Positions 11,214 through 50,524 of a DNA stretch of 64,000 nucleotides are shown here, piece by piece. The stretch is taken from assembly GCA_000004695.1 (NCBI GenBank), contig CM000150.2:1568001-1632000 (forward strand), given 5' to 3'. The position numbers and the translations under genes are program-made. Under the pieces are notes generated by a model, which did not search any database, was not told the origin of the DNA, and worked only from the letters and a program-made list of their open reading frames with translations. The stretch is from Dictyostelium discoideum (lineage: Eukaryota). The stretch's first letter is position 1; every line of letters starts with the position of its first letter.

Positions 11214-12248
11214 TTTTTACTTTTATTATTATTTTTATTATTTTGGAAAGGGGTTTTCCTTAATTTTATTTTTTTTATCTGCAGATTGATTTGATCTTTA
11301 TTTTTATTTGATTTTTTTTATTTTTTATTTAATTTTTTTTTTTTTGATTTTAATAATTCCTTTTAAACTTTTTCATATTTTTTTTATTTTTTTATTTTTT
11401 ATTTTTTTTATTTTTATTTTTATAAAAAGAAACTTGGAAATCAAAAAAAAAAAGGTTTAAAAAAAAAAAAGGTTTAAAAAAAAAAAAGGTTTAAAAAAAA
11501 AAAAAAAATAGATACTGGAATAATTAAATTAAATATAACACGTTTGCATAAATGATGATATAAATACTATTTTTAGAATTTATTTCACCATTTGAGTACT
11601 TGATATTTTTTTTTTTTTTTTTTTTTTTTTTGATTTCAAATACCGATAATTATAATCGTTCGTTTTTGAATATTTTTATTTTTTTTTTTTTATTTTTTTT
11701 ATTTTTTTATTTTTTTATTTTTAATTTTTTTTTTTTTTTTGAAAAAAAAGATTCTTTTTTAAAGTTTGATTCCAGCCTCTACACTTTTTTTTTAAAATTT
11801 TAATTTCTAGAATAATACATATAGTCTCCATAATTCATATAAAATTATAATTTTATGACTTTATTCCTTTTTTAATATTTTAAACATATTTTAAAATTAA
11901 AATTTTTTTTTTTTTTAATTTTTTAATTTTTTTTTTTTTTTTTTTTTTTATTTTTTCATCCTTTTTTTTTTTTTTTTTTTTTTTTCATTAATAACTAAAA
12001 AAAAAAAAAAATTGTGGGTTACCCCCTCACAAATAGTATCAATATTAATAGTAATAATAAAATTAATAACAGTAACAATAACCAATCATAAATATTCAAT
12101 ACTATAGTTTTTTTTTTTTTTTTATAAATTTTTAAAAATAGGTATAATAAAAATATAAGAAATCAAATAAAAATAAAATAAAATAAAAAAATAAACAAAA
12201 TTCTTCTTTATCTCTTAATCTCACAAAATAAAACAATGTATATAGAAT

Positions 12249-12284
<36 letters not shown>

Positions 12285-12520
12285 ACACAGGAAAAAAAAA
12301 AAAAAAAAAAAAAAACACAAACTTAAATTTAATAAATAAAATAAATTAATTTAAATTTTAAAATTAATATTTTGTATTGTATCGATAGAACATAAAACCT
12401 TAAAAAAATAAGAAATAAATAATATTTTTTGTATAATAATTAAAAAGTTTTTTTTTTTTTTTTTTTATTTTTTTGTTTGGAATAAATTAAAGAAAAAAAA
12501 AAAAAAAAACAAAACAAAAA

Positions 12521-13951
<1,431 letters not shown>

Positions 13952-23384: not shown

Positions 23385-25040
23385 TTAATAACCAATTGAA
23401 AAACCTGAAATTATATGAGCTTGTTTTAAACCACCAGTTGAAGCAGTCATACCAATGAAACAAGATTTATTTTCATGTAAATTTAATAATTTTTGGATAT
23501 TTGCTTTTATTTTATATAAAACTTGATATTTATCTAACCAAACATCAATTGTACTATCACCATCATCACCATTTGAAGTTGAATATTTAATAAAACATTC
23601 ATGTTCAATACCATCATTCATTGGTTTATTATTTTTTGGATTACCATAACCTAAAGAGAATCTATGATGAGAAGAATTTGGTTCTAATGATCTAGTATGA
23701 ATTGAAATATGATTACCATCTGGGTCTTTACAATGATCTTTTGTTGGATAAGTATCAAATTCTATTGCAATTGAATTTCTAATACCTTGATAACCTAAAC
23801 CACAACCACCAATACCAAGTGAATTGATTGAATCATTTTGAATTACAAATGCCATACCATCAGCACCATTAGTTTTAATTAAAAATTTAAATTTACAAAT
23901 GAAACCACCATTTGAAATGATATCAATTCTTTCCTTTATCCAAAATCCACCAACTCTATCATTTTCATCAGGTGTTAAACAAATACCATTCTTTGTAATA
24001 TCACAATTACCAACCAATTTCAATGATTCTCTTGCTTTTGAAATTGAATCTAAAGAATAAATTGGTTTTAAAATTATTGGTATTTCACTTTGTTGTTGTT
24101 GTTGTTGTTGCTGTTGTTGATTATTATTACCAGATTCACCTCTATTATTTCTCCATTCTGATGAACCAGAAATTCTACCAGTTAAATCACTACTATAAGT
24201 TCTTTGATGATAGGATTGTTTTTCATTATCTTCTAAGAATTCTCTATTTAAAATTGAACGTAATTCATCAAATGGTAATGTTGAACGAATTTGATGATTT
24301 AAATGATTTAAATAATTGGTTAGATCAGATTCACTAATTAAATATCGATTGAGATGAGGTAACTTTATTGAGTATCTAGAGGTGACATCGTAGATACCAT
24401 TGAATTCGAATGCAAATACGTAGGACAATTGTTTACCCCAACCACCTTCATAAGTTAGTGGACTGTCATAGGTTGCTTCACAACTATCGACATGTATCCA
24501 TCGACCATCAATGTAAACTTCATTCCAAACATGGTCGGTGAAATCCAAGATGTATCTAGTTGTAAAACCCAATGCAATAGAAAACAGAGTGAATGCATTC
24601 GCCCATTCACCACATCTTCCACATTTAGTTGATAGTAGTTTCTCGACAGAGTTGTATCTTGGGAATCTTGTTACGTGATTACTTGCACATCGGTATACCT
24701 CAACTATTGATACTTGATGTGACTGTTCTTCAAATGTTGGTCTATCACTACCAACTGAACTAGTCGATGGTGTACCACATTTAATATCTGAACATTCAGG
24801 TGAATTTGTCCATGTGAAATATTCATTCTTAAACCAATCCAATAACATTAACATCTTTCTCTTTAAATCTTTCTCTTTCTTTATCTCCAACGGTACTTGA
24901 TCTAATGCCATCTGTTGTAATCTATCAGAGTTATAGCTAATCATATTTCTATACATTCCTTCAATTTTATTCTTTAATCCATTTTCAATTTTAATTGGTA
25001 ATTTAAATGATTTTAAATTTGATAATAAAATTTTTTGATT
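23385..25040 (-). CDS. peptide:N-glycanase (PNGase) exon 2: Zn-binding Cys cluster, transglutaminase-like core and C-terminal legume (L-type) lectin-like domain
   Basis: PNGase core CGRCGEWANAFTLFSIALGFTTRYILDFTDHVWNEVYIDGRWIHVDSCE. C-terminal ADGMAFVIQN, AIEFDTY, DPDGNHISIH, VWLDKYQVLYK and FIGMTASTGG..QAHIISGF match the legume-lectin fold signature. Confidence 0.85.
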   Translation of the reverse strand, partial: NQKILLSNLKSFKLPIKIENGLKNKIEGMYRNMISYNSDRLQQMALDQVPLEIKKEKDLKRKMLMLLDWFKNEYFTWTNSPECSDIKCGTPSTSSVGSDRPTFEEQSHQVSIVEVYRCASNHVTRFPRYNSVEKLLSTKCGRCGEWANAFTLFSIALGFTTRYILDFTDHVWNEVYIDGRWIHVDSCEATYDSPLTYEGGWGKQLSYVFAFEFNGIYDVTSRYSIKLPHLNRYLISESDLTNYLNHLNHQIRSTLPFDELRSILNREFLEDNEKQSYHQRTYSSDLTGRISGSSEWRNNRGESGNNNQQQQQQQQQQSEIPIILKPIYSLDSISKARESLKLVGNCDITKNGICLTPDENDRVGGFWIKERIDIISNGGFICKFKFLIKTNGADGMAFVIQNDSINSLGIGGCGLGYQGIRNSIAIEFDTYPTKDHCKDPDGNHISIHTRSLEPNSSHHRFSLGYGNPKNNKPMNDGIEHECFIKYSTSNGDDGDSTIDVWLDKYQVLYKIKANIQKLLNLHENKSCFIGMTASTGGLKQAHIISGFSIGY

Positions 25041-25141: not shown

Positions 25142-25342
25142 ATTTAAAACAATAATTTTTTCAGTTGGCGAAGGATCTCTTAATTTTGAATTTGATAAAT
25201 AATAAAATCTTTGAAATGTTGGATCAACATCTGTAACTGAAAAAACTAATATTTGAAAATCTTCATATGTGCATTCATTTTCAACTTCTACTAAATATTC
25301 TTTATCATTATATATTAAATTTATAGTTTTAGATTGATTCAT
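25142..25342 (-). CDS. PNGase exon 1 (ATG 25342): small beta-grasp / ubiquitin-like-looking N-terminal module
   Basis: Donor GTAAAT at 25141-25136 after ...IIVLN. Acceptor ATTTAG at 25042-25041. Frame runs open into exon 2 (NQKILLSNLKSFKLPIKIENGLKNKIEGMYRNM...). Confidence 0.6.
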
Positions 25343-25659: not shown

Positions 25660-25919
25660 TTAATTACAACCACATGAACCAGAATAATAACCATAGCTAT
25701 AACTATAACTGTAAGTTGATCCTGATGCAGTTGTATATGAACCTGCATTAGAATCAATGTTAGTATAATCAGAAGGTAATCTTTTTCTACCATTACCACC
25801 ATTACTACCACATGAACCACATGCAATTGAATTAGAACCCATTGATAAACTTGATCCACCACCATTTGCAACACTTGATTTGCTTGATTTCATTGGGTTT
25901 GAAATTGAAATTAATGATG
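25660..25919 (-). CDS. hssA/B-like (hssA/2C/7E family) small Gly/Ser/Tyr/Cys-rich protein, copy A exon 2
   Basis: [27 protein letters not shown]...SCGCN. Acceptor TTTTTAG at 25921-25920. Confidence 0.7.
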
Positions 25920-26006
25920 CTAAAAACAATTTATAATAATTGTTAAAATTAGTTTTTTTTTTTTTTTTTTTTTTTTTTTATTTTAAATATGTATTTTAAA
26001 ATTTAC

Positions 26007-26019
26007 ATAAAATGCTCAT
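26007..26019 (-). CDS. hssA/B-like copy A exon 1 (13-nt micro-exon ATGAGCATTTTAT = MSIL+1)
   Basis: Donor GTAAAT at 26006-26001. Joins exon 2 in phase 1. Confidence 0.6.
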
Positions 26020-26681
26020 TTTTGGAAATTTAATTGATTGTTTTTAAAATTTGATTTAGAATATAGGATATAATTTTATTTTATTTTTTTTATTTTATAG
26101 TTTTATTTTTTTTTTTAATTTTTTACATTTTTTTTTTTTTTTTTTTTTTTTTTTTGATTTTATTTAAAATAATTTTATTTTTATTATTTATCTGTACATA
26201 TCAAACAACAATAAAAATTGCATATCTATAACCAAAAATATCATATGATTTTTTAAAAATTATTTAAAAAATATTTAAAAAAACAGATTGTTCAAATTAA
26301 TTTTTTAATAAAAAAAATATATTTATAAATGTGGTTATTCAATCCCTATAATATTATTCAGATTTTTCTAAATTTAGGAAGTTAAAATAAATTTGTAAAC
26401 TAAGTTTTTCAATTTTCCATACAAATAATAATAATTTTATTTAAAATTTTCTTAAAAATAAAAAAAAAACTAATTTTATATATGTATCATTTTTTTTTTT
26501 TTTTTTTTTTATTTTTAAGAAAATTAATTTAGAAATTAATAAAAATAATAATAATAAAAATACATTTTAATTTCTATATTTTCACAATTTCTTTATCCCA
26601 ATTTAATAAAAATTGAAAAAAAAAAATTACAATGAGGTGTGAATAAAAATTAATTTATTTATCTTTGTATTTTTGTTTTTT

Positions 26682-26914
26682 TTAAAAATTATAACCACAT
26701 GAACTATATCCGTAACTATAACTATAACTATACCCATATCCAGTTGGTGAATATGCACGAGTATTTGATGATTTAGGTGAAGTATAAGAAATTGTTTTTA
26801 TATGACTACTTGCAATTGTAATACCTTCCATTGAAACTGCTGAATAATAATTATTATTTGATGATACAGTACTATTTTTTGATGGAGAAGAAATTGATAT
26901 TGAAATTAATGATG
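26682..26914 (-). CDS. hssA/B-like copy B exon 2 (divergent: lacks the CGSCGG and terminal CGC[NH] motifs, ends SCGYNF)
   Basis: Same position and frame logic as the other copies. Acceptor AATAG at 26916-26915. Confidence 0.45.
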
Positions 26915-26934
26915 CTATTAAATTTTATATAAAA

Positions 26935-26970
<36 letters not shown>

Positions 26971-27010
26971 GTATATCACAAAAAATTATAAAAATACTAA
27001 TTAATATTAC

Positions 27011-27023
27011 ATAATATACTCAT
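27011..27023 (-). CDS. hssA/B-like copy B exon 1 (ATGAGTATATTAT)
   Basis: Donor GTAATA at 27010-27005. Confidence 0.45.
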
Positions 27024-27072
27024 TTTGGTGTTATTTTTTTAATTTTAATTTTAATTTTTAAAATTTTTTTTT

Positions 27073-27106
<34 letters not shown>

Positions 27107-27347
27107 TGTATAAAAATAAAAAAAATAATTTTAAATTATAAATTTAAAATTTTTTTTTTTTATTTCAATCCTTATCTGGTTAAATAAAAAATTTTTACAA
27201 ATGATTGATTTATAATAATATTAAAAAAAAGATTTTTTTTTTTTTTTTTTTTTTTCTTTTTTTTTTTTTGGGTTATTTCAGATTAATTTTGAAAAGACAA
27301 TAACGTACATGTTTTAATTTTACAAAAAAGTTTATGAACTTTTTCAA

Positions 27348-27378
<31 letters not shown>

Positions 27379-27914
27379 ATGAATAGTAGAAAAAAAATAT
27401 TTAATTAATAGGAAATAGTCAGATTTTTTTTTTGTTTATTTACCATATAAAGAGTAATAACACTAGATTTTAAAATAATAAACTCTTTGTATAAACATAA
27501 AAAAATGAAATTGAATGAAAGGGAATTTCCACCTTGGTTAACACAAGATTTTTAAATAATTGAATTTTTTATTTTCAATTTGAAATTGAATAAATTTTAC
27601 CAATTGAAACCTTTCTATAAAATTTTAGTGTTATTATATTTTAGTTATCAAATAAAAAAAATTATAAAATAACCTTTAATTTTGATAATAAAAAAAAAAA
27701 TTAAAACAATTCTAAAATAATAATAATTATTATAGTAATTATTTTTTCATTTTTAAAATAAAATTTTTAAAAATGATAATAAATGATATAAAAAATAAGT
27801 AGACAAAATTTTAATTTTTAGGGGTAGGGGGGAATGATGAATAAATTTTATTTTATTTATTTTACAATATATTATTACAACAAATGTAATGTAATTGTTA
27901 TAGAAACAATTGTT

Positions 27915-28168
27915 TTAATTACAGCCACATGATGATGATGAAAAGGATGAACCGTAACTATATGTGTAACCATATTGATAAGTTGGTGAAGTGTAGGTGT
28001 AATAGGTTGTTTGAGAACCATCAGAATTATTAATTATACCAGATGATGAATTACCACCACCACATGAACCACATGCTACTGAATTGGCACCCATTGATAA
28101 TTTACTACCACCATTTGCAACATTTGAATTGCTTGATTTCATTGGGTTTGAAATTGATGTTAATGCAG
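27915..28168 (-). CDS. hssA/B-like copy C exon 2
   Basis: [21 protein letters not shown]...SCGCN. Acceptor AATTAG at 28170-28169. Confidence 0.7.
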
Positions 28169-28170
28169 CT

Positions 28171-28231
<61 letters not shown>

Positions 28232-28297
28232 TTTTAAAAATTTAAATATTAATTTATAAATGTTTTTTTATTAAATTTTAAAAAAATTATTTCTTAC

Positions 28298-28310
28298 ATA
28301 AGATACTCAT
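28298..28310 (-). CDS. hssA/B-like copy C exon 1 (ATGAGTATCTTAT)
   Basis: Donor GTAAGA at 28297-28292. Confidence 0.6.
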
Positions 28311-28374
28311 TTTTAGTTTTTGTTTTAAATAATATTTTGATTTAATGGCTTTATGGTTTTTTTTTTTTCTTTTA

Positions 28375-28406
<32 letters not shown>

Positions 28407-28760
28407 GGAATTTTAGTTATATTTATTTTTTTTATGACAAATAGATTCATTCTTTTTAAAATCTTTAAAACCTTTCATAAACAATACATTATATAATATA
28501 AATCTTTTATTTTTTTAAGATTTAACGATTTTATAAAAATAGTAGATTTTAAAAATAAAAAAAAATTCAATAAATTAAAATGAAAAATTTTGAAATAGAT
28601 CATAGGTTCCAAAGGTGAGAAAAAAGTTAAATAATAATTTTAAATCAAAGAAAAAAAAAATTATAATTTTAACTGGGTATAAGTGAATTAAATTAATTTA
28701 TTAATTTTACAATTTATTTTTACAAAAAATGTATTGCAGTAGTTATTGAAAAACACTTAT

Positions 28761-29011
28761 TTAATGACAACCACATGATGATGAACCTGATGAACTATAG
28801 CTATAACTATAATTGTATGTGTAAACTGGTGAAGTGTAAGAGTAATAAGTTGTTTGAGAACCATCAGCATTATTAATTGTACCAGATGATGAGTTACCTC
28901 CACCACATGAACCACATGCGACTGAATTGGTACCCATTGATAATCTACCACCACCATTTGCAACACTTGATTTAGTTGATTTCATTGGGTTTGAAATTGA
29001 AGTTAATGCAG
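28761..29011 (-). CDS. hssA/B-like copy D exon 2 (ends SCGCH)
   Basis: Acceptor CTTAG at 29013-29012. Confidence 0.7.
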
Positions 29012-29109
29012 CTAAGTTAAATGAAAAAAAAAAAAAAAAAAAAAAGTTTTAAAAATTAATATATCAATTTATAAATGTTTTTATTATATATAAAAAAATG
29101 AATTCTTAC

Positions 29110-29122
29110 ATAATATGCTCAT
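29110..29122 (-). CDS. hssA/B-like copy D exon 1 (ATGAGCATATTAT)
   Basis: Donor GTAAGA at 29109-29104. Confidence 0.6.
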
Positions 29123-29181
29123 TTTGTTTTTAAATAATATTTTGATTTAATGGTTTTATAATTTTTTTTTTTTTTCTTTTA

Positions 29182-29221
<40 letters not shown>

Positions 29222-29569
29222 GCATTTTGGTTATAATCATTTTTTAATATTTTTCTAAAATAAATTGATTCATCATTTTTAAAATCTAAAAACTTTTTAT
29301 ACAAAACATAATAATATATAAAATCTTTTATTTTTAATAGATTAAACGATTATATAAAAATAGTTGTTTTTAAAAAAAAAAATTCTATAACTCTATAATG
29401 AAAATTTTCAAAAGTAAAAAAAAAAAAGTTAAATAATAATTTTAAAATCAAATAAATAAATTAATAATTAAAAAAAAATAATAATTAGAGGGGAAAAGTG
29501 AATTAATTTAATTTATTAATTTTACAAATTATTTTTACAAAAAAATGTAATGTAGTAGTTAACAATTTT

Positions 29570-29820
29570 TTAATGACATCCACATGATGATGAACCAGAT
29601 GAACTATAGCTATAACTATAATTGTATGTGTAAACTGGTGAAGTGTAAGAGTAATAAGTTGTTTGAGAACCATCAGCATTATTAATTGTACCAGATGATG
29701 AGTTACCACCTCCACATGAACCACATGCGACTGAATTTGAACCCATTGATAATCTACCACCACCATTTGCAACACTTGATTTAGTTGATTTCATTGGGTT
29801 TGAAATTGAAGTTAATGCAG
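29570..29820 (-). CDS. hssA/B-like copy E exon 2
   Basis: Acceptor ATTTAG at 29822-29821. Confidence 0.7.
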
Positions 29821-29905
29821 CTAAATTAAATAAAAAAAGAAAAAATAAAGTTTTAATATTATTTTATAAATATTTTCATATAAAATATAAAAAATGAATT
29901 CTTAC

Positions 29906-29918
29906 ATAAGATACTCAT
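29906..29918 (-). CDS. hssA/B-like copy E exon 1
   Basis: Donor GTAAGA at 29905-29900. Confidence 0.6.
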
Positions 29919-30304
29919 TTTATTTTAGTTTTTGTTTTTAAAAAATATTTTGATTTAATGGTTTTATTGTTTTTTTTTTTTTTCTTTTATACTTTTTTTT
30001 TTTTTATTTTTTTTATTTTTTATTTATTTTTGTTAATACATTTTTAAATTTAGTTAAAATTATTTTTTTGGTTTTTAATAAGATAAATAGATTCATCCTT
30101 TTTAAAATCTATAATAACTTTTCATAAACACAATACATTATAAAAATCTTTTATTTTTAAAAGATTAAACGATTTTATTTAAATAGTGGTTTTTAAAAAA
30201 AAAAAAAAAAAATTCAAAAATAATAATGAAAAATTTAAAAAATAGATCATAGGTTTCAATAAGGTAAAAATATACCTAAAATAATAATTTTAAAATCAAT
30301 CAAA

Positions 30305-30377
<73 letters not shown>

Positions 30378-30475
30378 ATAATTAGGGGGTAAAAGTGAAT
30401 TAATTTAATTTATTAATTTTACAATTTATTATTACAACAAATGTAATGTAGTAGTTATTGAAAGACAACTGTTTT

Positions 30476-30729
30476 TTAATGACAACCACATGATGAAGAT
30501 GAACCTGATGAACTATAGCTATAACTATAATTGTATGTGTAAATTGGAGAAGTGTAAGTGTAATAAGTTGTTTTGGAACCATCAGCATTATTAATTGTAC
30601 CAGATGATGAACTTCCACCACCACATGAACCACATGCGACTGAATTTGAACCCATTGATAATCTACCACCGCCATTTGCAACACTTGATTTGCTTGATTT
30701 CATTGGGTTTGAAATTGAAGTTAATGCAG
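30476..30729 (-). CDS. hssA/B-like copy F exon 2
   Basis: Acceptor AATTAG at 30731-30730. Confidence 0.7.
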
Positions 30730-30877
30730 CTAATTAAAAAATAAAAAATAAAAAATAAAAATATAAATTTTTTAAAAATTAATATTAAAATTCTAATTGT
30801 TTTTTTATTTTTATAATATTTTTTTATTTTTTTTTTAATTTCTTTTATTAAATATAAAAAAGGAAATGAATTCTTAC

Positions 30878-30890
30878 ATAAGATACTCAT
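30878..30890 (-). CDS. hssA/B-like copy F exon 1
   Basis: Donor GTAAGA at 30877-30872. Confidence 0.6.
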
Positions 30891-31583
30891 TTTGTTTGAT
30901 TTTATATTAAATAATGTTTTGATTTGAATAATAAAAAAAAAAAAAAATTTATTTATACTTTTTTTTTTTAAAATGCACATTTATTTAAAAATAAAAATTT
31001 AATTATAAATAATTTTAAAAAATAAATTATAACTTATATTTTCTTTAAATATTTTCATCCACATCTATAATATCTAAAAGGCGCGGTTTTTGAATTAAAA
31101 AAAAAGCAATCTAGATTAATTAATATAAAAAAAAAAAAAAAACCCAAGATATATAAAAAAAAAAAAATAAAAAATAAACCCAAAGACATATAAAAAAAAA
31201 ACCAAAGATAGATAAAAAAAAAAAATCGATTTCTTTTTTAGATGACACTCATATTAAAATTAAAAGTTTTAAAAAAAAATTATAATTTTTCATTATAATT
31301 TATTGTTTTCAATCACAAGTAAAAAAAACCAATATCTTAATTTTTTTAATAGATAAAAATTTTTTAAAAAAAAAATTAAAAAAAAAAAATTTTTTAATAA
31401 AAAAAAAAAAAAAAATTTATTTTTTTATTGTTATGTATTTATATATTTTATTTTATTTTTATATTTGTATATATTTTATTTATTTTATTTATTTTTTTTT
31501 TAAAAAAAAAAAATAATATATCATTATTTTTTTATTTTTTTTTATTTTTTTTTTTTTTCACTTTTTTTTTCTATTCACTCAAA

Positions 31584-32147
31584 TTAGATTTTATCACCCA
31601 AAATAAAAATAATTAAAACTAAAAAACCAAAAATTGCAAAAAAGTTTGGAATATTACTTGTTGAATTATTTTTTTGAGGTTCATTTGTTTTTGGAGGTTT
31701 TGTAGTTTGATTTGGTTCATTTGAATTTAACGATGATGAAGATAAGGATGATGAAGATGTTGTATTTGGGGAAGGTGATGGATTTGAAGAATTTGATGGT
31801 GATGGAGTTTCTTTAAAGATACATTTAACAGAATATGGACCAACTAAAGCAGCATTATCAATTGAACAATTGAATAAATTAATTGTATAATTATTTGTTA
31901 AACATTGTTTATCATCAGTTTCAATATATGATGTAAAATTATAATTATTAACATTATCTTTTGAAGAAGTAATTTTAAAAGAATTTGAACAACCATTATT
32001 ACAAACATCTAATGAAACTTCTAATTGTTTTCCTTTACATGATCCAACTGTTGAATTTACATAAAAATTAATAACACTATCAAGTGGTAATGATTGAATT
32101 AAATTAATAATTGAAATTAATAAAAATAATAAAATTAAATTTTTCAT
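31584..32147 (-). CDS. small secreted, Cys-containing, Ser/Thr/Pro-rich, probably GPI-anchored surface protein (ponticulin-like architecture)
   Basis: N-terminal signal peptide MKNLILLFLLISIINLIQS. Six Cys in the mature part. S/T/P/N stalk. Hydrophobic C-terminus FFAIFGFLVLIIFIL typical of a GPI-attachment signal. Confidence 0.55.
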   Translation of the reverse strand: MKNLILLFLLISIINLIQSLPLDSVINFYVNSTVGSCKGKQLEVSLDVCNNGCSNSFKITSSKDNVNNYNFTSYIETDDKQCLTNNYTINLFNCSIDNAALVGPYSVKCIFKETPSPSNSSNPSPSPNTTSSSSLSSSSLNSNEPNQTTKPPKTNEPQKNNSTSNIPNFFAIFGFLVLIIFILGDKI

Positions 32148-47508: not shown

Positions 47509-47579
47509 GGGGAGATCCGAGAATCGAACTCAGGACGCTACCACCCAAAGGTAGCATTATACCACTTAACTAATCTCCC
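47509..47579 (-). tRNA. tRNA-Pro(UGG): tRNA-Pro (anticodon UGG), 71 nt
   Basis: Cloverleaf read from sequence: acceptor GGGAGAU/AUCUCCC, D-arm GUUA..UAAU, anticodon stem CUACC/GGUAG, loop UUUGGGU, T-arm CUGAG-TTCGATT-CUCGG. A- and B-box-like internal sequences. Confidence 0.9.
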
Positions 47580-50453: not shown

Positions 50454-50524
50454 GGGGAGATCCGAGAATCGAACTCAGGACGCTACCACCCAAAGGTAGC
50501 ATTATACCACTTAACTAATCTCCC
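50454..50524 (-). tRNA. tRNA-Pro(UGG): tRNA-Pro (UGG), second identical copy
   Basis: 71/71 identity with the copy at 47509-47579. Same orientation. About 2.9 kb apart. Confidence 0.9.

What the first reader, a model, noticed from the sequence alone, without database searches (positions are those of the whole stretch)
25660..30890. Tandem array of six hssA/B-like micro-genes with a conserved 13-nt first exon
Six head-to-tail minus-strand copies at about 0.8-1 kb spacing. Each encodes an ~88-aa Ser/Gly/Tyr/Cys-rich peptide of the form MSIL|S(A)L(T/I)[27 protein letters not shown]...SCGC[NH]. Every copy shares the same gene structure: exon 1 is ATGAGYATNTTAT, donor GTAAGA/GTAAAT, a ~90-170-nt intron, and a phase-1 acceptor. 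The intergenic spacers are also repeated (e.g. ...tgatttaatggttttat...ttttttcttttatacttttttt..., agattaaacgatt, tagatcataggtt) and carry 50-65-nt pure poly(A) runs. Several rejected ORF-track entries lie in the wrong frame or strand over these genes, and automatic callers would miss the micro-exon. The array looks like recent unequal-crossover amplification.
Basis: partly seen in the sequence, partly recalled or inferred. Interest (0 to 1): 0.55.

Follow-up and report, generated by a model that had tools for sequence, protein, structure and literature searches.

The report
Six known Dictyostelium hssA-like small genes
This stretch holds six already annotated Dictyostelium discoideum genes (hssl4 to hssl9) of the roughly 100-member hssA/2C/7E (sigN) family of small developmental proteins, and their 13-base first exon is a published family hallmark, so the finding is correct but ordinary.

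Summary
There are exactly six minus-strand two-exon genes at 25660-30890. Each has a 13-nt first coding exon, an intron of 85-148 nt and a phase-1 acceptor, and encodes an 81-90 aa Ser/Gly/Tyr-rich product.

Five of the six spliced products are residue-for-residue identical to D. discoideum AX4 chromosome 1 proteins HssA/B-like 9, 8, 7, 5 and 4. The sixth (g4) matches the dimensions of the published model sigN136. The window is AX4 chr1 1,568,001-1,632,000. The 13-nt exon is a published family hallmark (Vicente 2008; Kin 2018). Novelty is therefore "already known".

New details from this work:
- The array is old. D. citrinum and D. firmibasis each carry four genes at the syntenic site, covering the same three subtypes.
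- Only hssl7, hssl8 and hssl9 arose within D. discoideum (dS 0.12-0.20). The "recent amplification" claim therefore holds for half of the array.
- dN/dS is 0.04-0.48, which argues for selection on the protein.
- The 5' halves of the coding regions look homogenised by gene conversion.
- hssl5 is a divergent subtype that has lost most cysteines, misses Pfam, and is nearly silent in published RNA-seq, yet is conserved.
- Automated annotations of newer assemblies do miss most of these genes.

The molecular function of the family remains unknown. Interest is low.

The parts
30476..30890 (-). g1 = hssl9 (HSL9_DICDI, Q55FC2; sigN127 in Vicente 2008). Exon 1 30890-30878, intron 30877-30730 (148 nt, GTAAGA...TTAG), exon 2 30729-30476 including the stop; 88 aa.
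   Evidence: The spliced product is an exact match to EAL73682.2/XP_647611.2. Pfam PF05710 scores 70.5 bits. The older 118-aa model with a 103-nt exon 1 (P0005; sigN127 103//253) has been superseded.
29570..29918 (-). g2 = hssl8 (HSL8_DICDI, Q55FC3; sigN131). Exon 1 29918-29906, intron 29905-29821 (85 nt), exon 2 29820-29570; 87 aa.
   Evidence: Exact match to EAL73540.1. Pfam scores 68.3 bits. Vicente's additional file lists 13//250 with intron 84 on chromosome 1; their intron counts are one less than mine.
28761..29122 (-). g3 = hssl7 (HSL7_DICDI, Q55FC4; sigN135). Exon 1 29122-29110, intron 29109-29012 (98 nt), exon 2 29011-28761; 87 aa.
   Evidence: Exact match to EAL73539.1. Pfam scores 66.5 bits. 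It differs from g2 by one residue; exon 2 is 98% identical, with dS 0.12 and dN 0.005.
27915..28310 (-). g4 = probably hssl6 (sigN136, DDB0202240). Exon 1 28310-28298, intron 28297-28169 (129 nt, containing a 54-nt homopolymer), exon 2 28168-27915; 88 aa.
   Evidence: Pfam scores 65.9 bits. The exact product is not in the protein collection. The dimensions match sigN136, 13//253 with intron 128 and 88 aa, on chromosome 1. The same protein is encoded in the second D. discoideum assembly, L001, at 11596 with a 104-nt intron. The name hssl6 is inferred from the gap in the numbering.
26682..27023 (-). g5 = hssl5 (HSL5_DICDI, Q55FC6, DDB_G0268454). Exon 1 27023-27011, intron 27010-26915 (96 nt, donor GTAATA), exon 2 26914-26682; 81 aa. 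A divergent subtype with a single Cys.
   Evidence: Exact match to EAL73680.1. Its published chromosome 1 coordinates, 1594682-1595023, fix the window offset. There is no Pfam hit at E<=1. A profile of the three orthologues matches independent family members at hhalign probability 91.8%, E 7e-7, over the N-terminal 41 columns. Orthologues lie in L002 at 11119 and L003 at 11713.
25660..26019 (-). g6 = hssl4 (HSL4_DICDI, Q55FC7; sigN157). Exon 1 26019-26007, intron 26006-25920 (87 nt, donor GTAAAT), exon 2 25919-25660; 90 aa.
   Evidence: Exact match to EAL73538.1. Pfam scores 69.1 bits. Vicente lists 13//259 with intron 86 and 90 aa. Orthologues lie in L002 at 11990 and L003 at 12575.
28338..28406 (-). 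Core promoter module of g4: oligo(A), GTATAAAAG (TATA box), oligo(A), then CCATTAAATCAAAAT, read on the gene strand.
Evidence: It is shared by g2, g3 and g4 and by Dc_b (with a looser version in Df_b) in the other species. Promoter function is inferred from the position and the TATA consensus and was not tested.
29143..29218 (-). Core promoter module of g3 (same architecture as for g4).
29951..30010 (-). Core promoter module of g2 (same architecture as for g4).
30409..30424 (-). Conserved 3'UTR block TTGTAAAATTAATAAA (polyadenylation-signal region) of g1, followed by TTCAC and a C-rich patch. Equivalent blocks for g2 and g3 start at 29512 and 28697.
   Evidence: The block is nearly invariant (one variable position) in the eight A-type genes of three species; for positions. 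It has no supported RNA structure (consensus energy -0.38 kcal/mol). A role in 3'-end formation is inferred.
30308..30375 (.). 68-nt homopolymer (A on the plus strand, T on the gene strand) in the g1-g2 spacer. A 54-nt run at 28175-28228 lies inside the g4 intron.
   Evidence: The g4 intron is 129 nt here and 104 nt in L001. The alignment to L001 has 7 gap openings in 5.3 kb. These tracts therefore vary in length between strains.

Best explanation
The region is the annotated hssl9-hssl8-hssl7-hssl6-hssl5-hssl4 gene array of Dictyostelium discoideum AX4, on chromosome 1 at about 1,593,660-1,598,890.

**Shown here**
- There are six protein-coding members of the hssA/2C/7E (sigN, Pfam PF05710) family, which is restricted to group-4 dictyostelids.
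- Each gene has its own TATA-containing core promoter module.
- Each has a 13-nt coding exon (M-S-I-L plus one base), one short AT-rich intron, and a second exon of 233-260 nt.
- The products are 81-90 aa, 58-61% Ser/Gly/Tyr/Thr, and have no confidently predicted fold.
- They carry an amphipathic N-terminal MSILSALTSIS segment. Five of the six also have a CGSCG motif and a C-terminal SCGC[NH].
- All have a (Y-S)n tract near the C-terminus.

**From published RNA-seq**
- The family-annotated gene IDs around this position are switched on at about 16-20 h of development and are prestalk- or stalk-enriched.
- hssl5 is essentially silent.

**Inferred**
- The array grew by tandem duplication from an ancestral set of three subtypes. 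It is kept partly homogeneous by gene conversion.
- The proteins act redundantly and by dose. [quoted passage not shown]
- The biochemical function is not established for any of the six.
For: **Identity**
- Five spliced products are exact matches to AX4 proteins on a 4,923,596-bp contig.
- Pfam PF05710 scores 66-70 bits for five of the six.
- The window offset is fixed twice, by the published chromosome 1 coordinates of DDB_G0268454 and of ponK.

**Family hallmark**
[quoted passage not shown] Five of these six genes are listed there as sigN127, 131, 135, 136 and 157.

**Splicing and coding (computational)**
- In all 14 genes from three species, the exon-2 frame has no in-frame ATG upstream of conserved codon 5. 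One gene has no internal Met at all.
- Apart from one conservative I-to-L change (Df_4), exon 1 varies only at third codon positions.
- GT...AG is kept in every gene.
- dN/dS is 0.04-0.34 between paralogues and 0.17-0.48 between orthologues.
- The 23-aa block [23 protein letters not shown] of the hssl5 type is invariant across three species despite synonymous changes.

**Array history**
- The syntenic loci hold 6 genes in a second D. discoideum assembly, 4 in D. citrinum and 4 in D. firmibasis.
- The 5' 150 nt are more alike within a species, while the 3' part keeps orthology.

**Expression**
- Kin 2018 supplements, with development data from Parikh 2010: DDB_G0268458 peaks at 138 at 16 h, with prestalk 403 against prespore 17.5. 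DDB_G0268456 reads 20-26 at 16-20 h, with stalk about 25 TPM and cup about 0. DDB_G0268398 and DDB_G0268400 peak at 25-38 at 16 h. DDB_G0268454 is at most about 1 TPM everywhere.
- G0268400 is listed among the prestalk hssA-related genes that respond to mef2A loss.

**Protein properties**
- AlphaFold2 gives mean pLDDT 46 and pTM 0.19.

**Function of relatives**
- SigN proteins are detected as 12-kDa proteins located in vesicles. Anti-group-2 antibodies disaggregate mounds. Deletion of 13 genes gives no phenotype.
- Six single knock-outs of other members give no phenotype.
Against: - No spliced read or EST was examined for these six genes. The splice junctions rest on conservation, exact identity to curated models, and cDNA evidence for the relative sigN1.
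- The exact g4 product is absent from the protein collection, so its annotation status is inferred from a supplementary table and an accession gap.
- Apart from DDB_G0268454, the mapping of DDB_G expression rows to individual copies is inferred from accession order. hssl7 and hssl8 are 98% identical, so read assignment between them is uncertain.
- None of the six proteins has a classical signal peptide-like hydrophobic core (maximum Kyte-Doolittle value over 11 residues is 1.5-2.0). This weakens the secretion idea.
- Over-expression of frame-shifted hssA still rescued a STATa mutant, so at least one family member can act as RNA.
- Knock-outs of relatives show no phenotype, so any functional statement is weak.
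Confidence: 0.95

Rival explanations
1. The transcripts are the active products, not the peptides. The genes would act as small developmental regulatory RNAs and the ORF would be incidental.
For: [quoted passage not shown] The 3'UTR holds a nearly invariant 16-nt block across three species.
Against: - dN/dS is 0.04-0.48 in every comparison, and apart from one conservative I-to-L change the micro-exon varies only at third codon positions.
- SigN relatives are detected as 12-kDa proteins.
- The conserved 3' block is an AATAAA-type signal with no supported structure (-0.38 kcal/mol, one compensatory pair).
- An RNA role could exist alongside a protein role.
Confidence: 0.07
2. Part of the array is dead. 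hssl5 (g5) would be a decaying pseudogene left over from duplication.
For: g5 has no Pfam hit at E<=1. It has lost the CGSCG and CGC motifs and keeps a single Cys. It reads at most about 1 TPM in cup, stalk, spore and vegetative cells and sits in the low-expression sheet. It is not among Vicente's 96 genes.
Against: The ORF, the micro-exon and the GTAATA...ATAG splice sites are intact in D. discoideum, D. citrinum and D. firmibasis. dN/dS is 0.39-0.48. A 23-residue C-terminal block is invariant despite synonymous changes.
Confidence: 0.08
3. The whole six-gene array is a very recent unequal-crossover amplification of one unit.
For: g1-g3 are 94-98% identical in exon 2, and the three spacers after g1, g2 and g3 are 83-85% identical. 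dS among hssl7, hssl8 and hssl9 is 0.12-0.20, below the 0.4-0.6 seen between species.
Against: - D. citrinum and D. firmibasis carry A-type, 5-type and 4-type genes in the same order at the syntenic locus.
- g4, g5 and g6 share only 50-86% exon-2 identity with g1-g3, and their spacers are at background.
- Even the youngest pair has about 15% spacer divergence and is identical in a second strain.
Confidence: 0.03

Closest known systems
hssA/2C/7E (sigN, HssA/B-like; Pfam PF05710 'Coiled') family of Dictyostelium discoideum
   Same: The gene structure is the same: a 13-nt exon-1 ORF, one short intron and a second exon of about 230-260 nt. Size (81-90 aa), Ser/Gly-rich composition, the N-terminal MSILSALTSIS motif, the CGSCG and SCGC[NH] motifs, tandem clustering and induction in mid-to-late development all match. 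These six genes are members; five already carry that name in UniProt/NCBI.
   Different: Nothing differs for five of them. hssl5 is a divergent member that fails the Pfam threshold and has lost three of the four cysteines. The array's A-type and 4-type proteins carry a Tyr/Ser-rich C-terminal half where hssB, hssl3 and hssl62 have a hydrophobic Gly/Ala/Val/Ile segment.
sigN Group 1 and Group 2 clusters on chromosome 2 (Vicente et al. 2008)
   Same: Both are head-to-tail clusters of 6-7 near-identical genes in 7-10 kb with the same exon and intron plan, prestalk expression and induction after about 10 h.
   Different: The chromosome 1 proteins are only 20-26% identical to SigN1 by Vicente's table. 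SrfA dependence, vesicular localisation and the antibody effects were shown only for the chromosome 2 groups.
SRCP1 (serine-rich chaperone protein 1, DDB_G0293362)
   Same: It is an approximately 9-kDa serine-rich D. discoideum protein placed in the same large class of small-protein genes. [quoted passage not shown] The (Y-S)n tract here could behave similarly.
   Different: Anti-aggregation activity has not been tested for any of hssl4-hssl9.
Cup-cell-specific hssA clade (Kin et al. 2018)
   Same: Same family and same gene structure.
   Different: The rows for the gene IDs in this array are in the stalk-specific sheet, with cup TPM of about 0-5. They are not among the very highly expressed cup-specific genes.

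Membership tests
hssA/2C/7E (sigN) family, Pfam PF05710 | Match to the Pfam PF05710 profile above the gathering score (21.4 bits) | tested here: met
   g1, g2, g3, g4 and g6 score 65.9-70.5 bits over the full profile. g5 has no hit at E<=1, so this feature is met for five of the six.
hssA/2C/7E (sigN) family, Pfam PF05710 | Gene structure: 13-nt exon-1 ORF, a single short intron in phase 1, and a second exon carrying the rest of the CDS (89 of 96 members; Vicente 2008) | tested here: met
   All six have it. It is also conserved in the eight orthologues from two other species.
hssA/2C/7E (sigN) family, Pfam PF05710 | Small (<120 aa) Ser/Gly/Cys-rich product with the conserved N-terminal M-[ST]-[IL]-L-S-x-[IL]-x-S-[IL]-S, CG[SG]CG and C-terminal SCGC[NH] motifs | tested here: met
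   See the alignments and the composition. g5 keeps only the N-terminal motif and SCG. A g5-type profile matches independent members at hhalign probability 91.8%, E 7e-7.
hssA/2C/7E (sigN) family, Pfam PF05710 | Developmentally induced expression, mostly in the prestalk or stalk lineage | not testable with these tools
   No expression data could be computed here. Published tables show induction at 16-20 h and prestalk or stalk enrichment for DDB_G0268398, 0268400, 0268456 and 0268458, and near silence for DDB_G0268454. The ID-to-copy mapping is certain only for DDB_G0268454.
hssA/2C/7E (sigN) family, Pfam PF05710 | Restricted to Dictyostelium (group 4 dictyostelids) | tested here: met
   Profile searches against 5.8 billion protein clusters return only D. 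discoideum, D. citrinum, D. firmibasis and D. dimigraforme proteins. The literature calls the family group 4-specific.
Cysteine-knot proteins (old dictyBase label for SigN) | Six cysteines forming three knotted disulphides in a compact fold | tested here: not met
   There are four cysteines in five of the proteins and one in g5. AlphaFold2 gives no confident fold (pLDDT 46, pTM 0.19). Vicente 2008 also notes four cysteines instead of six.
Coiled-coil proteins (the Pfam short name 'Coiled') | Long heptad-repeat alpha-helices | tested here: not met
   The model has one 3-residue helix and two short strands, all at low confidence. The sequence is 58-61% Ser/Gly/Tyr/Thr. The Pfam name appears to be historical.
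SRCP1-like anti-aggregation proteins | C-terminal pseudo-amyloid domain required to suppress polyglutamine aggregation | not tested
   Only the literature description was available. The SRCP1 sequence and any activity assay were out of reach.

The most novel reading that the evidence does not exclude
The hssl5 type may be a distinct, conserved and so far unrecognised subfamily.
- It is present at the same array position in D. discoideum, D. citrinum and D. firmibasis.
- It has lost the family's cysteine motifs but keeps an invariant 23-residue Tyr/Ser/Gly C-terminal block under purifying selection.
- It misses the Pfam model. It has a single protein record in 5.8 billion clusters, and its orthologues are unannotated.
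- It is silent in standard asexual development. This would point to a role in an unsampled condition, such as the sexual macrocyst cycle, stress, or a rare cell type.
- More broadly, the (Y-S)n tails of the array proteins could act as SRCP1-like pseudo-amyloid modules.
Probability: 0.25. Interest if true: 0.3.

Novelty: already known. Interest (0 to 1): 0.1.

Why it matters
It matters little as a discovery. The genes, their family and the 13-nt micro-exon are in UniProt, NCBI, dictyBase and two papers.

It has three modest practical uses:
1. It is a clean test case showing that current automated eukaryotic annotation drops or mis-fuses most members of a family of about 100 genes because of a 13-nt first exon. 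Only 1-2 of the 4-6 genes are called in three recent Dictyostelium assemblies.
2. The three-species comparison gives evidence, from dN/dS and an invariant C-terminal block, that these small ORFs are selected as proteins. This bears on the open question of RNA versus protein action raised by the hssA frame-shift experiment.
3. The array is a compact 5.2-kb target for deleting six paralogues at once, in a family where single and 13-gene knock-outs have shown no phenotype.

Tried and rejected
- **Conserved 3'UTR hairpin (ATTACA...TGTAAT).** RNAalifold on eight 3'UTRs gives -0.38 kcal/mol and does not predict it. The conservation there is a linear AATAAA-type block.
- **C-rich patches after each stop codon as GBF/CAE-type enhancers for the next gene.** This is unlikely. 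The patch also follows the last gene of the array and the D. citrinum type-4 gene, where no hssl gene lies downstream, and it always sits right after AATAAA...TTCAC. It was not tested further.
- **Structure-based annotation.** AlphaFold2 on a 14-sequence alignment gave pLDDT 46 and pTM 0.19. No fold search was run because the matches would be meaningless.
- **Look-up of the AX4 locus through HSL7 (P0004).** This found nothing, so the AX4 gene table could not be read directly. The second D. discoideum assembly was used instead.
- **hssl6 protein record.** It was not found by exact look-up, by single-sequence search or by profile search.
- **Literature on the six genes by name or DDB_G id.** There were no relevant main-text hits.
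- **The SRCP1 primary paper (PMC6091221).** It is not held.
- **Rfam and tRNA scans.** They found nothing in the array.
- **The two extra pattern hits at 2365 and 16270.** Each has 2 mismatches, and neither was picked up by the family tblastn. Both are chance matches.

Full report
**1. What is in the sequence**

The window is about 20% G+C throughout, which is typical of Dictyostelium. On the minus strand between 30890 and 25660 the motif ATGAGYATNTTATGTAA occurs six times exactly. Even with two mismatches allowed, only 0.5 hits are expected by chance.

I joined each 13-nt ATG segment to the first downstream AG|C[TA][GT]CAT acceptor. A tblastn search with the family finds exactly these six exon-2 copies and nothing else in the 64 kb.

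- Intron range is 85-148 nt.
- ATG-to-ATG spacing is 796-1287 nt.
- There is a third donor variant, GTAATA.
- Only two long homopolymers exist, of 54 and 68 nt. The 54-nt run is inside the g4 intron rather than in a spacer.

**2. Identity**

An exact-sequence look-up shows that five of the six conceptual spliced proteins are residue-for-residue identical to D. discoideum AX4 proteins on a 4,923,596-bp contig. These are HssA/B-like protein 9 (Q55FC2), 8 (Q55FC3), 7 (Q55FC4), 5 (Q55FC6, DDB_G0268454) and 4 (Q55FC7).

Published chromosome 1 coordinates place the window at chr1 1,568,001-1,632,000. Those coordinates are DDB_G0268454 at 1594682-1595023 on the minus strand with a CDS of 246, and the neighbouring ponK at 1599584-1600147.

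The product of the fourth gene is not in the protein collection. However, Vicente et al. 2008 list a chromosome 1 model of identical dimensions: sigN136, 13//253, intron 128, 88 aa. Their intron counts are consistently one less than mine. The gaps in three numbering series (hssl4, 5, _, 7, 8, 9; Q55FC7, 6, _, 4, 3, 2; EAL73680, _, 82) point to hssl6. This last step is an inference.

Pfam PF05710 matches five of the six at 66-70 bits against a cut-off of 21.4. hssl5 has no hit.

**3. The micro-exon is a published hallmark**

Vicente et al. 2008 found 96 sigN-like genes. [quoted passage not shown] Their additional file lists five of our six genes as sigN127, 131, 135, 136 and 157. Kin et al. [quoted passage not shown] The finding is therefore already known.

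The hssl9 model was once wrong. The 118-aa form with a 103-nt exon 1 (P0005 = sigN127) was later corrected.

**4. Independent computational support for splicing and coding**

I fetched the syntenic loci from three other assemblies:
- L001, a second D. discoideum assembly (GCA_054883475.1), 98.9-100% identical to the window, with the same six genes.
- L002, D. citrinum, with four genes.
- L003, D. firmibasis, with four genes.

In all 14 genes:
- The exon-2 frame contains no in-frame ATG between the nearest upstream stop and conserved codon 5.
- One gene (Df_5) has no internal methionine at all, so only the micro-exon can supply the start codon.
- Apart from one conservative I-to-L change (Df_4), exon 1 varies only at third codon positions (AGT/AGC; ATC/ATA/ATT).
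- GT...AG is retained.

Nei-Gojobori dN/dS is 0.04-0.34 between paralogues and 0.17-0.48 between orthologues. These are short genes, so individual values carry large errors, but the direction is uniform.

I did not see spliced reads. The direct cDNA evidence in the literature is for sigN1.

**5. History of the array**

The three species share the same order of subtypes:
- A-type genes first. These are hssl9, 8, 7 and 6 in D. discoideum, and two genes in each of the other species.
- Then one hssl5-type gene.
- Then one hssl4-type gene.

In all three, the array is flanked by ponK and a 1270-aa gene on one side and by the PNGase-like, cupin and SNARE genes on the other. The array therefore predates these species.

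Within D. discoideum, hssl7 and hssl8 have dS 0.12, and hssl9 against hssl7/8 has dS 0.18-0.20. Orthologue dS is 0.4-0.7. Only those duplications are lineage-specific. Their spacers are 83-85% identical, whereas all other spacers sit at the 52-62% background.

The 5' 150 nt of the A-type CDSs are more similar within a species (Dd9-Dd6 0.92; Dc_a-Dc_b 0.96) than between orthologues (0.86-0.89). The 3' part instead preserves orthology (Dd9-Dc_a 0.90 and Dd6-Dc_b 0.84, against Dd9-Dd6 0.78). That mosaic pattern is what gene conversion would produce. The site numbers are small.

**6. Non-coding anatomy**

On the gene strand this module reads oligo(A), GTATAAAAG, oligo(A), CCATTAAATCAAAAT. It is present upstream of g2, g3 and g4 and of Dc_b, with a looser version upstream of Df_b.

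The first gene of the array in each species instead has a TATA box followed by an oligo(T) run.

Downstream of the stop codons, a 16-nt block TTGTAAAATTAATAAA is nearly invariant (one variable position) in the eight A-type genes. It is followed by TTCAC and a C-rich patch. RNAalifold gives no structure (-0.38 kcal/mol). I read this block as the polyadenylation signal and cleavage region.

**7. What the products are and how they may work**

The proteins are 58-61% Ser/Gly/Tyr/Thr and slightly basic. They have an N-terminal amphipathic MSILSALTSIS segment, CGSCG and C-terminal SCGC[NH] motifs (four Cys in five of the proteins), and a (Y-S)n tract.

AlphaFold2 on a 14-sequence alignment gives pLDDT 46 and pTM 0.19. 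This suggests an intrinsically disordered protein, although the alignment is shallow. The old 'cysteine-knot' and 'coiled-coil' labels are not supported.

Published RNA-seq puts the family-annotated IDs at this locus in the stalk-specific set. They are induced at 16-20 h and are strongly prestalk-biased for DDB_G0268458 (403 against 17.5). hssl5 is essentially silent. G0268400 responds to loss of Mef2A.

Findings for relatives:
- SigN proteins are 12-kDa polypeptides seen in vesicles.
- Anti-group-2 antibodies dissolve mounds.
- Deleting 13 genes has no phenotype.
- Six further single knock-outs are normal.
- Frame-shifted hssA still rescues a STATa mutant.

My best reading is that these are redundant, dose-driven, self-associating low-complexity polypeptides of the prestalk and stalk lineage. 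The dN/dS values argue that the protein, not only the RNA, is under selection. The biochemical mechanism remains inferred.

**8. hssl5**

This copy fails Pfam, has lost three of the four cysteines, is not in Vicente's list, and is nearly unexpressed. Against that:
- Its ORF and splice sites are intact in three species.
- dN/dS is 0.39-0.48.
- The block [23 protein letters not shown] is invariant despite synonymous changes.
- Its profile still matches independent family members over the N-terminal 41 columns (hhalign 91.8%, E 7e-7).
- It has a single record in the protein collection, and the orthologues are unannotated.

I regard it as a divergent functional member rather than a pseudogene.

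**9. Annotation side-note**

- In L001 only hssl8 is called correctly, and a 163-aa model spans hssl6 to hssl5.
- In L002 one of four genes is called.
- In L003 two of four are called.
- In D. cf. discoideum a 258-aa model fuses ponK to exon 2 of the hssl9 orthologue (P0002).

**10. Verdict**

Novelty is 'already known' and interest is low.

Noticed in passing
L001:9069-14200; L002:9143-12400; L003:10001-12950: Automated annotations of three recent Dictyostelium assemblies call only 1-2 of the 4-6 hssl genes at this locus. In L001 a 163-aa model (11596-13192) starts at the hssl6 micro-exon and runs into hssl5. The hssl5-type orthologues in D. citrinum and D. firmibasis are not annotated at all.
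   Followed up: partly
window 30476-32147 (ponK 31584-32147 plus hssl9): In 'Dictyostelium cf. discoideum' a 258-aa protein record (P0002, KAM9991420.1) fuses the ponticulin-related ponK ORF to exon 2 of the hssl9 orthologue. This is a mis-splice model that skips the 13-nt exon.
   Followed up: partly
window 28169-28297 and 30308-30375: The long homopolymer tracts vary in length between D. discoideum strains. The g4 intron is 129 nt here and 104 nt in L001. The alignment of the two arrays has 7 gap openings but only 6 mismatches in 5.3 kb.
   Followed up: partly
window 47509-47579 and 50454-50524 (minus strand): Two tRNA-Pro(UGG) genes with the same length and Rfam score (71 nt, 57 bits) lie 2.9 kb apart. 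They border or lie within the stretch with the highest G+C in the window (0.28-0.32 at 42-48 kb). In D. discoideum, TRE retrotransposons target tRNA genes, so a mobile element may sit there. This was not examined.
   Followed up: no
window 28697-28712, 29512-29527, 30409-30424 and the orthologous 3'UTRs in L002/L003: A 16-nt 3'UTR block, TTGTAAAATTAATAAA, is nearly invariant (one variable position) in the eight A-type genes of three species, while the surrounding UTR diverges. It is followed by TTCAC and a C-rich patch. It probably marks the poly(A) signal and cleavage site. No RNA structure is supported.
   Followed up: partly
window 27915-30890 versus L002:9143-10344: A-type coding regions show a mosaic pattern. 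The 5' 150 nt are more alike within a species, while the 3' part keeps orthology between species. This suggests gene conversion limited to the 5' half of the CDS.
   Followed up: partly
window 30663-30980 (minus strand): A 105-aa mechanical ORF starts at an upstream ATG, reads through the MSIL micro-exon and continues into the intron. Its first 34 residues are the N-terminus of the superseded 118-aa hssl9 model (P0005; sigN127 with a 103-nt exon 1).
   Followed up: yes
window 25150-25340 (minus strand): Just downstream of hssl4 there is a short coding exon (MNQSKTINLIYNDKEYLVEVENECTYEDFQ...) followed by GTAAAT. It appears to be the first exon of the 618-aa transglutaminase-core/lectin (PNGase-like) gene, whose main ORF is at 23385-24956. 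The same gene follows the array in L001 and L003 (in L002 the corresponding model carries no Pfam hit).
   Followed up: no
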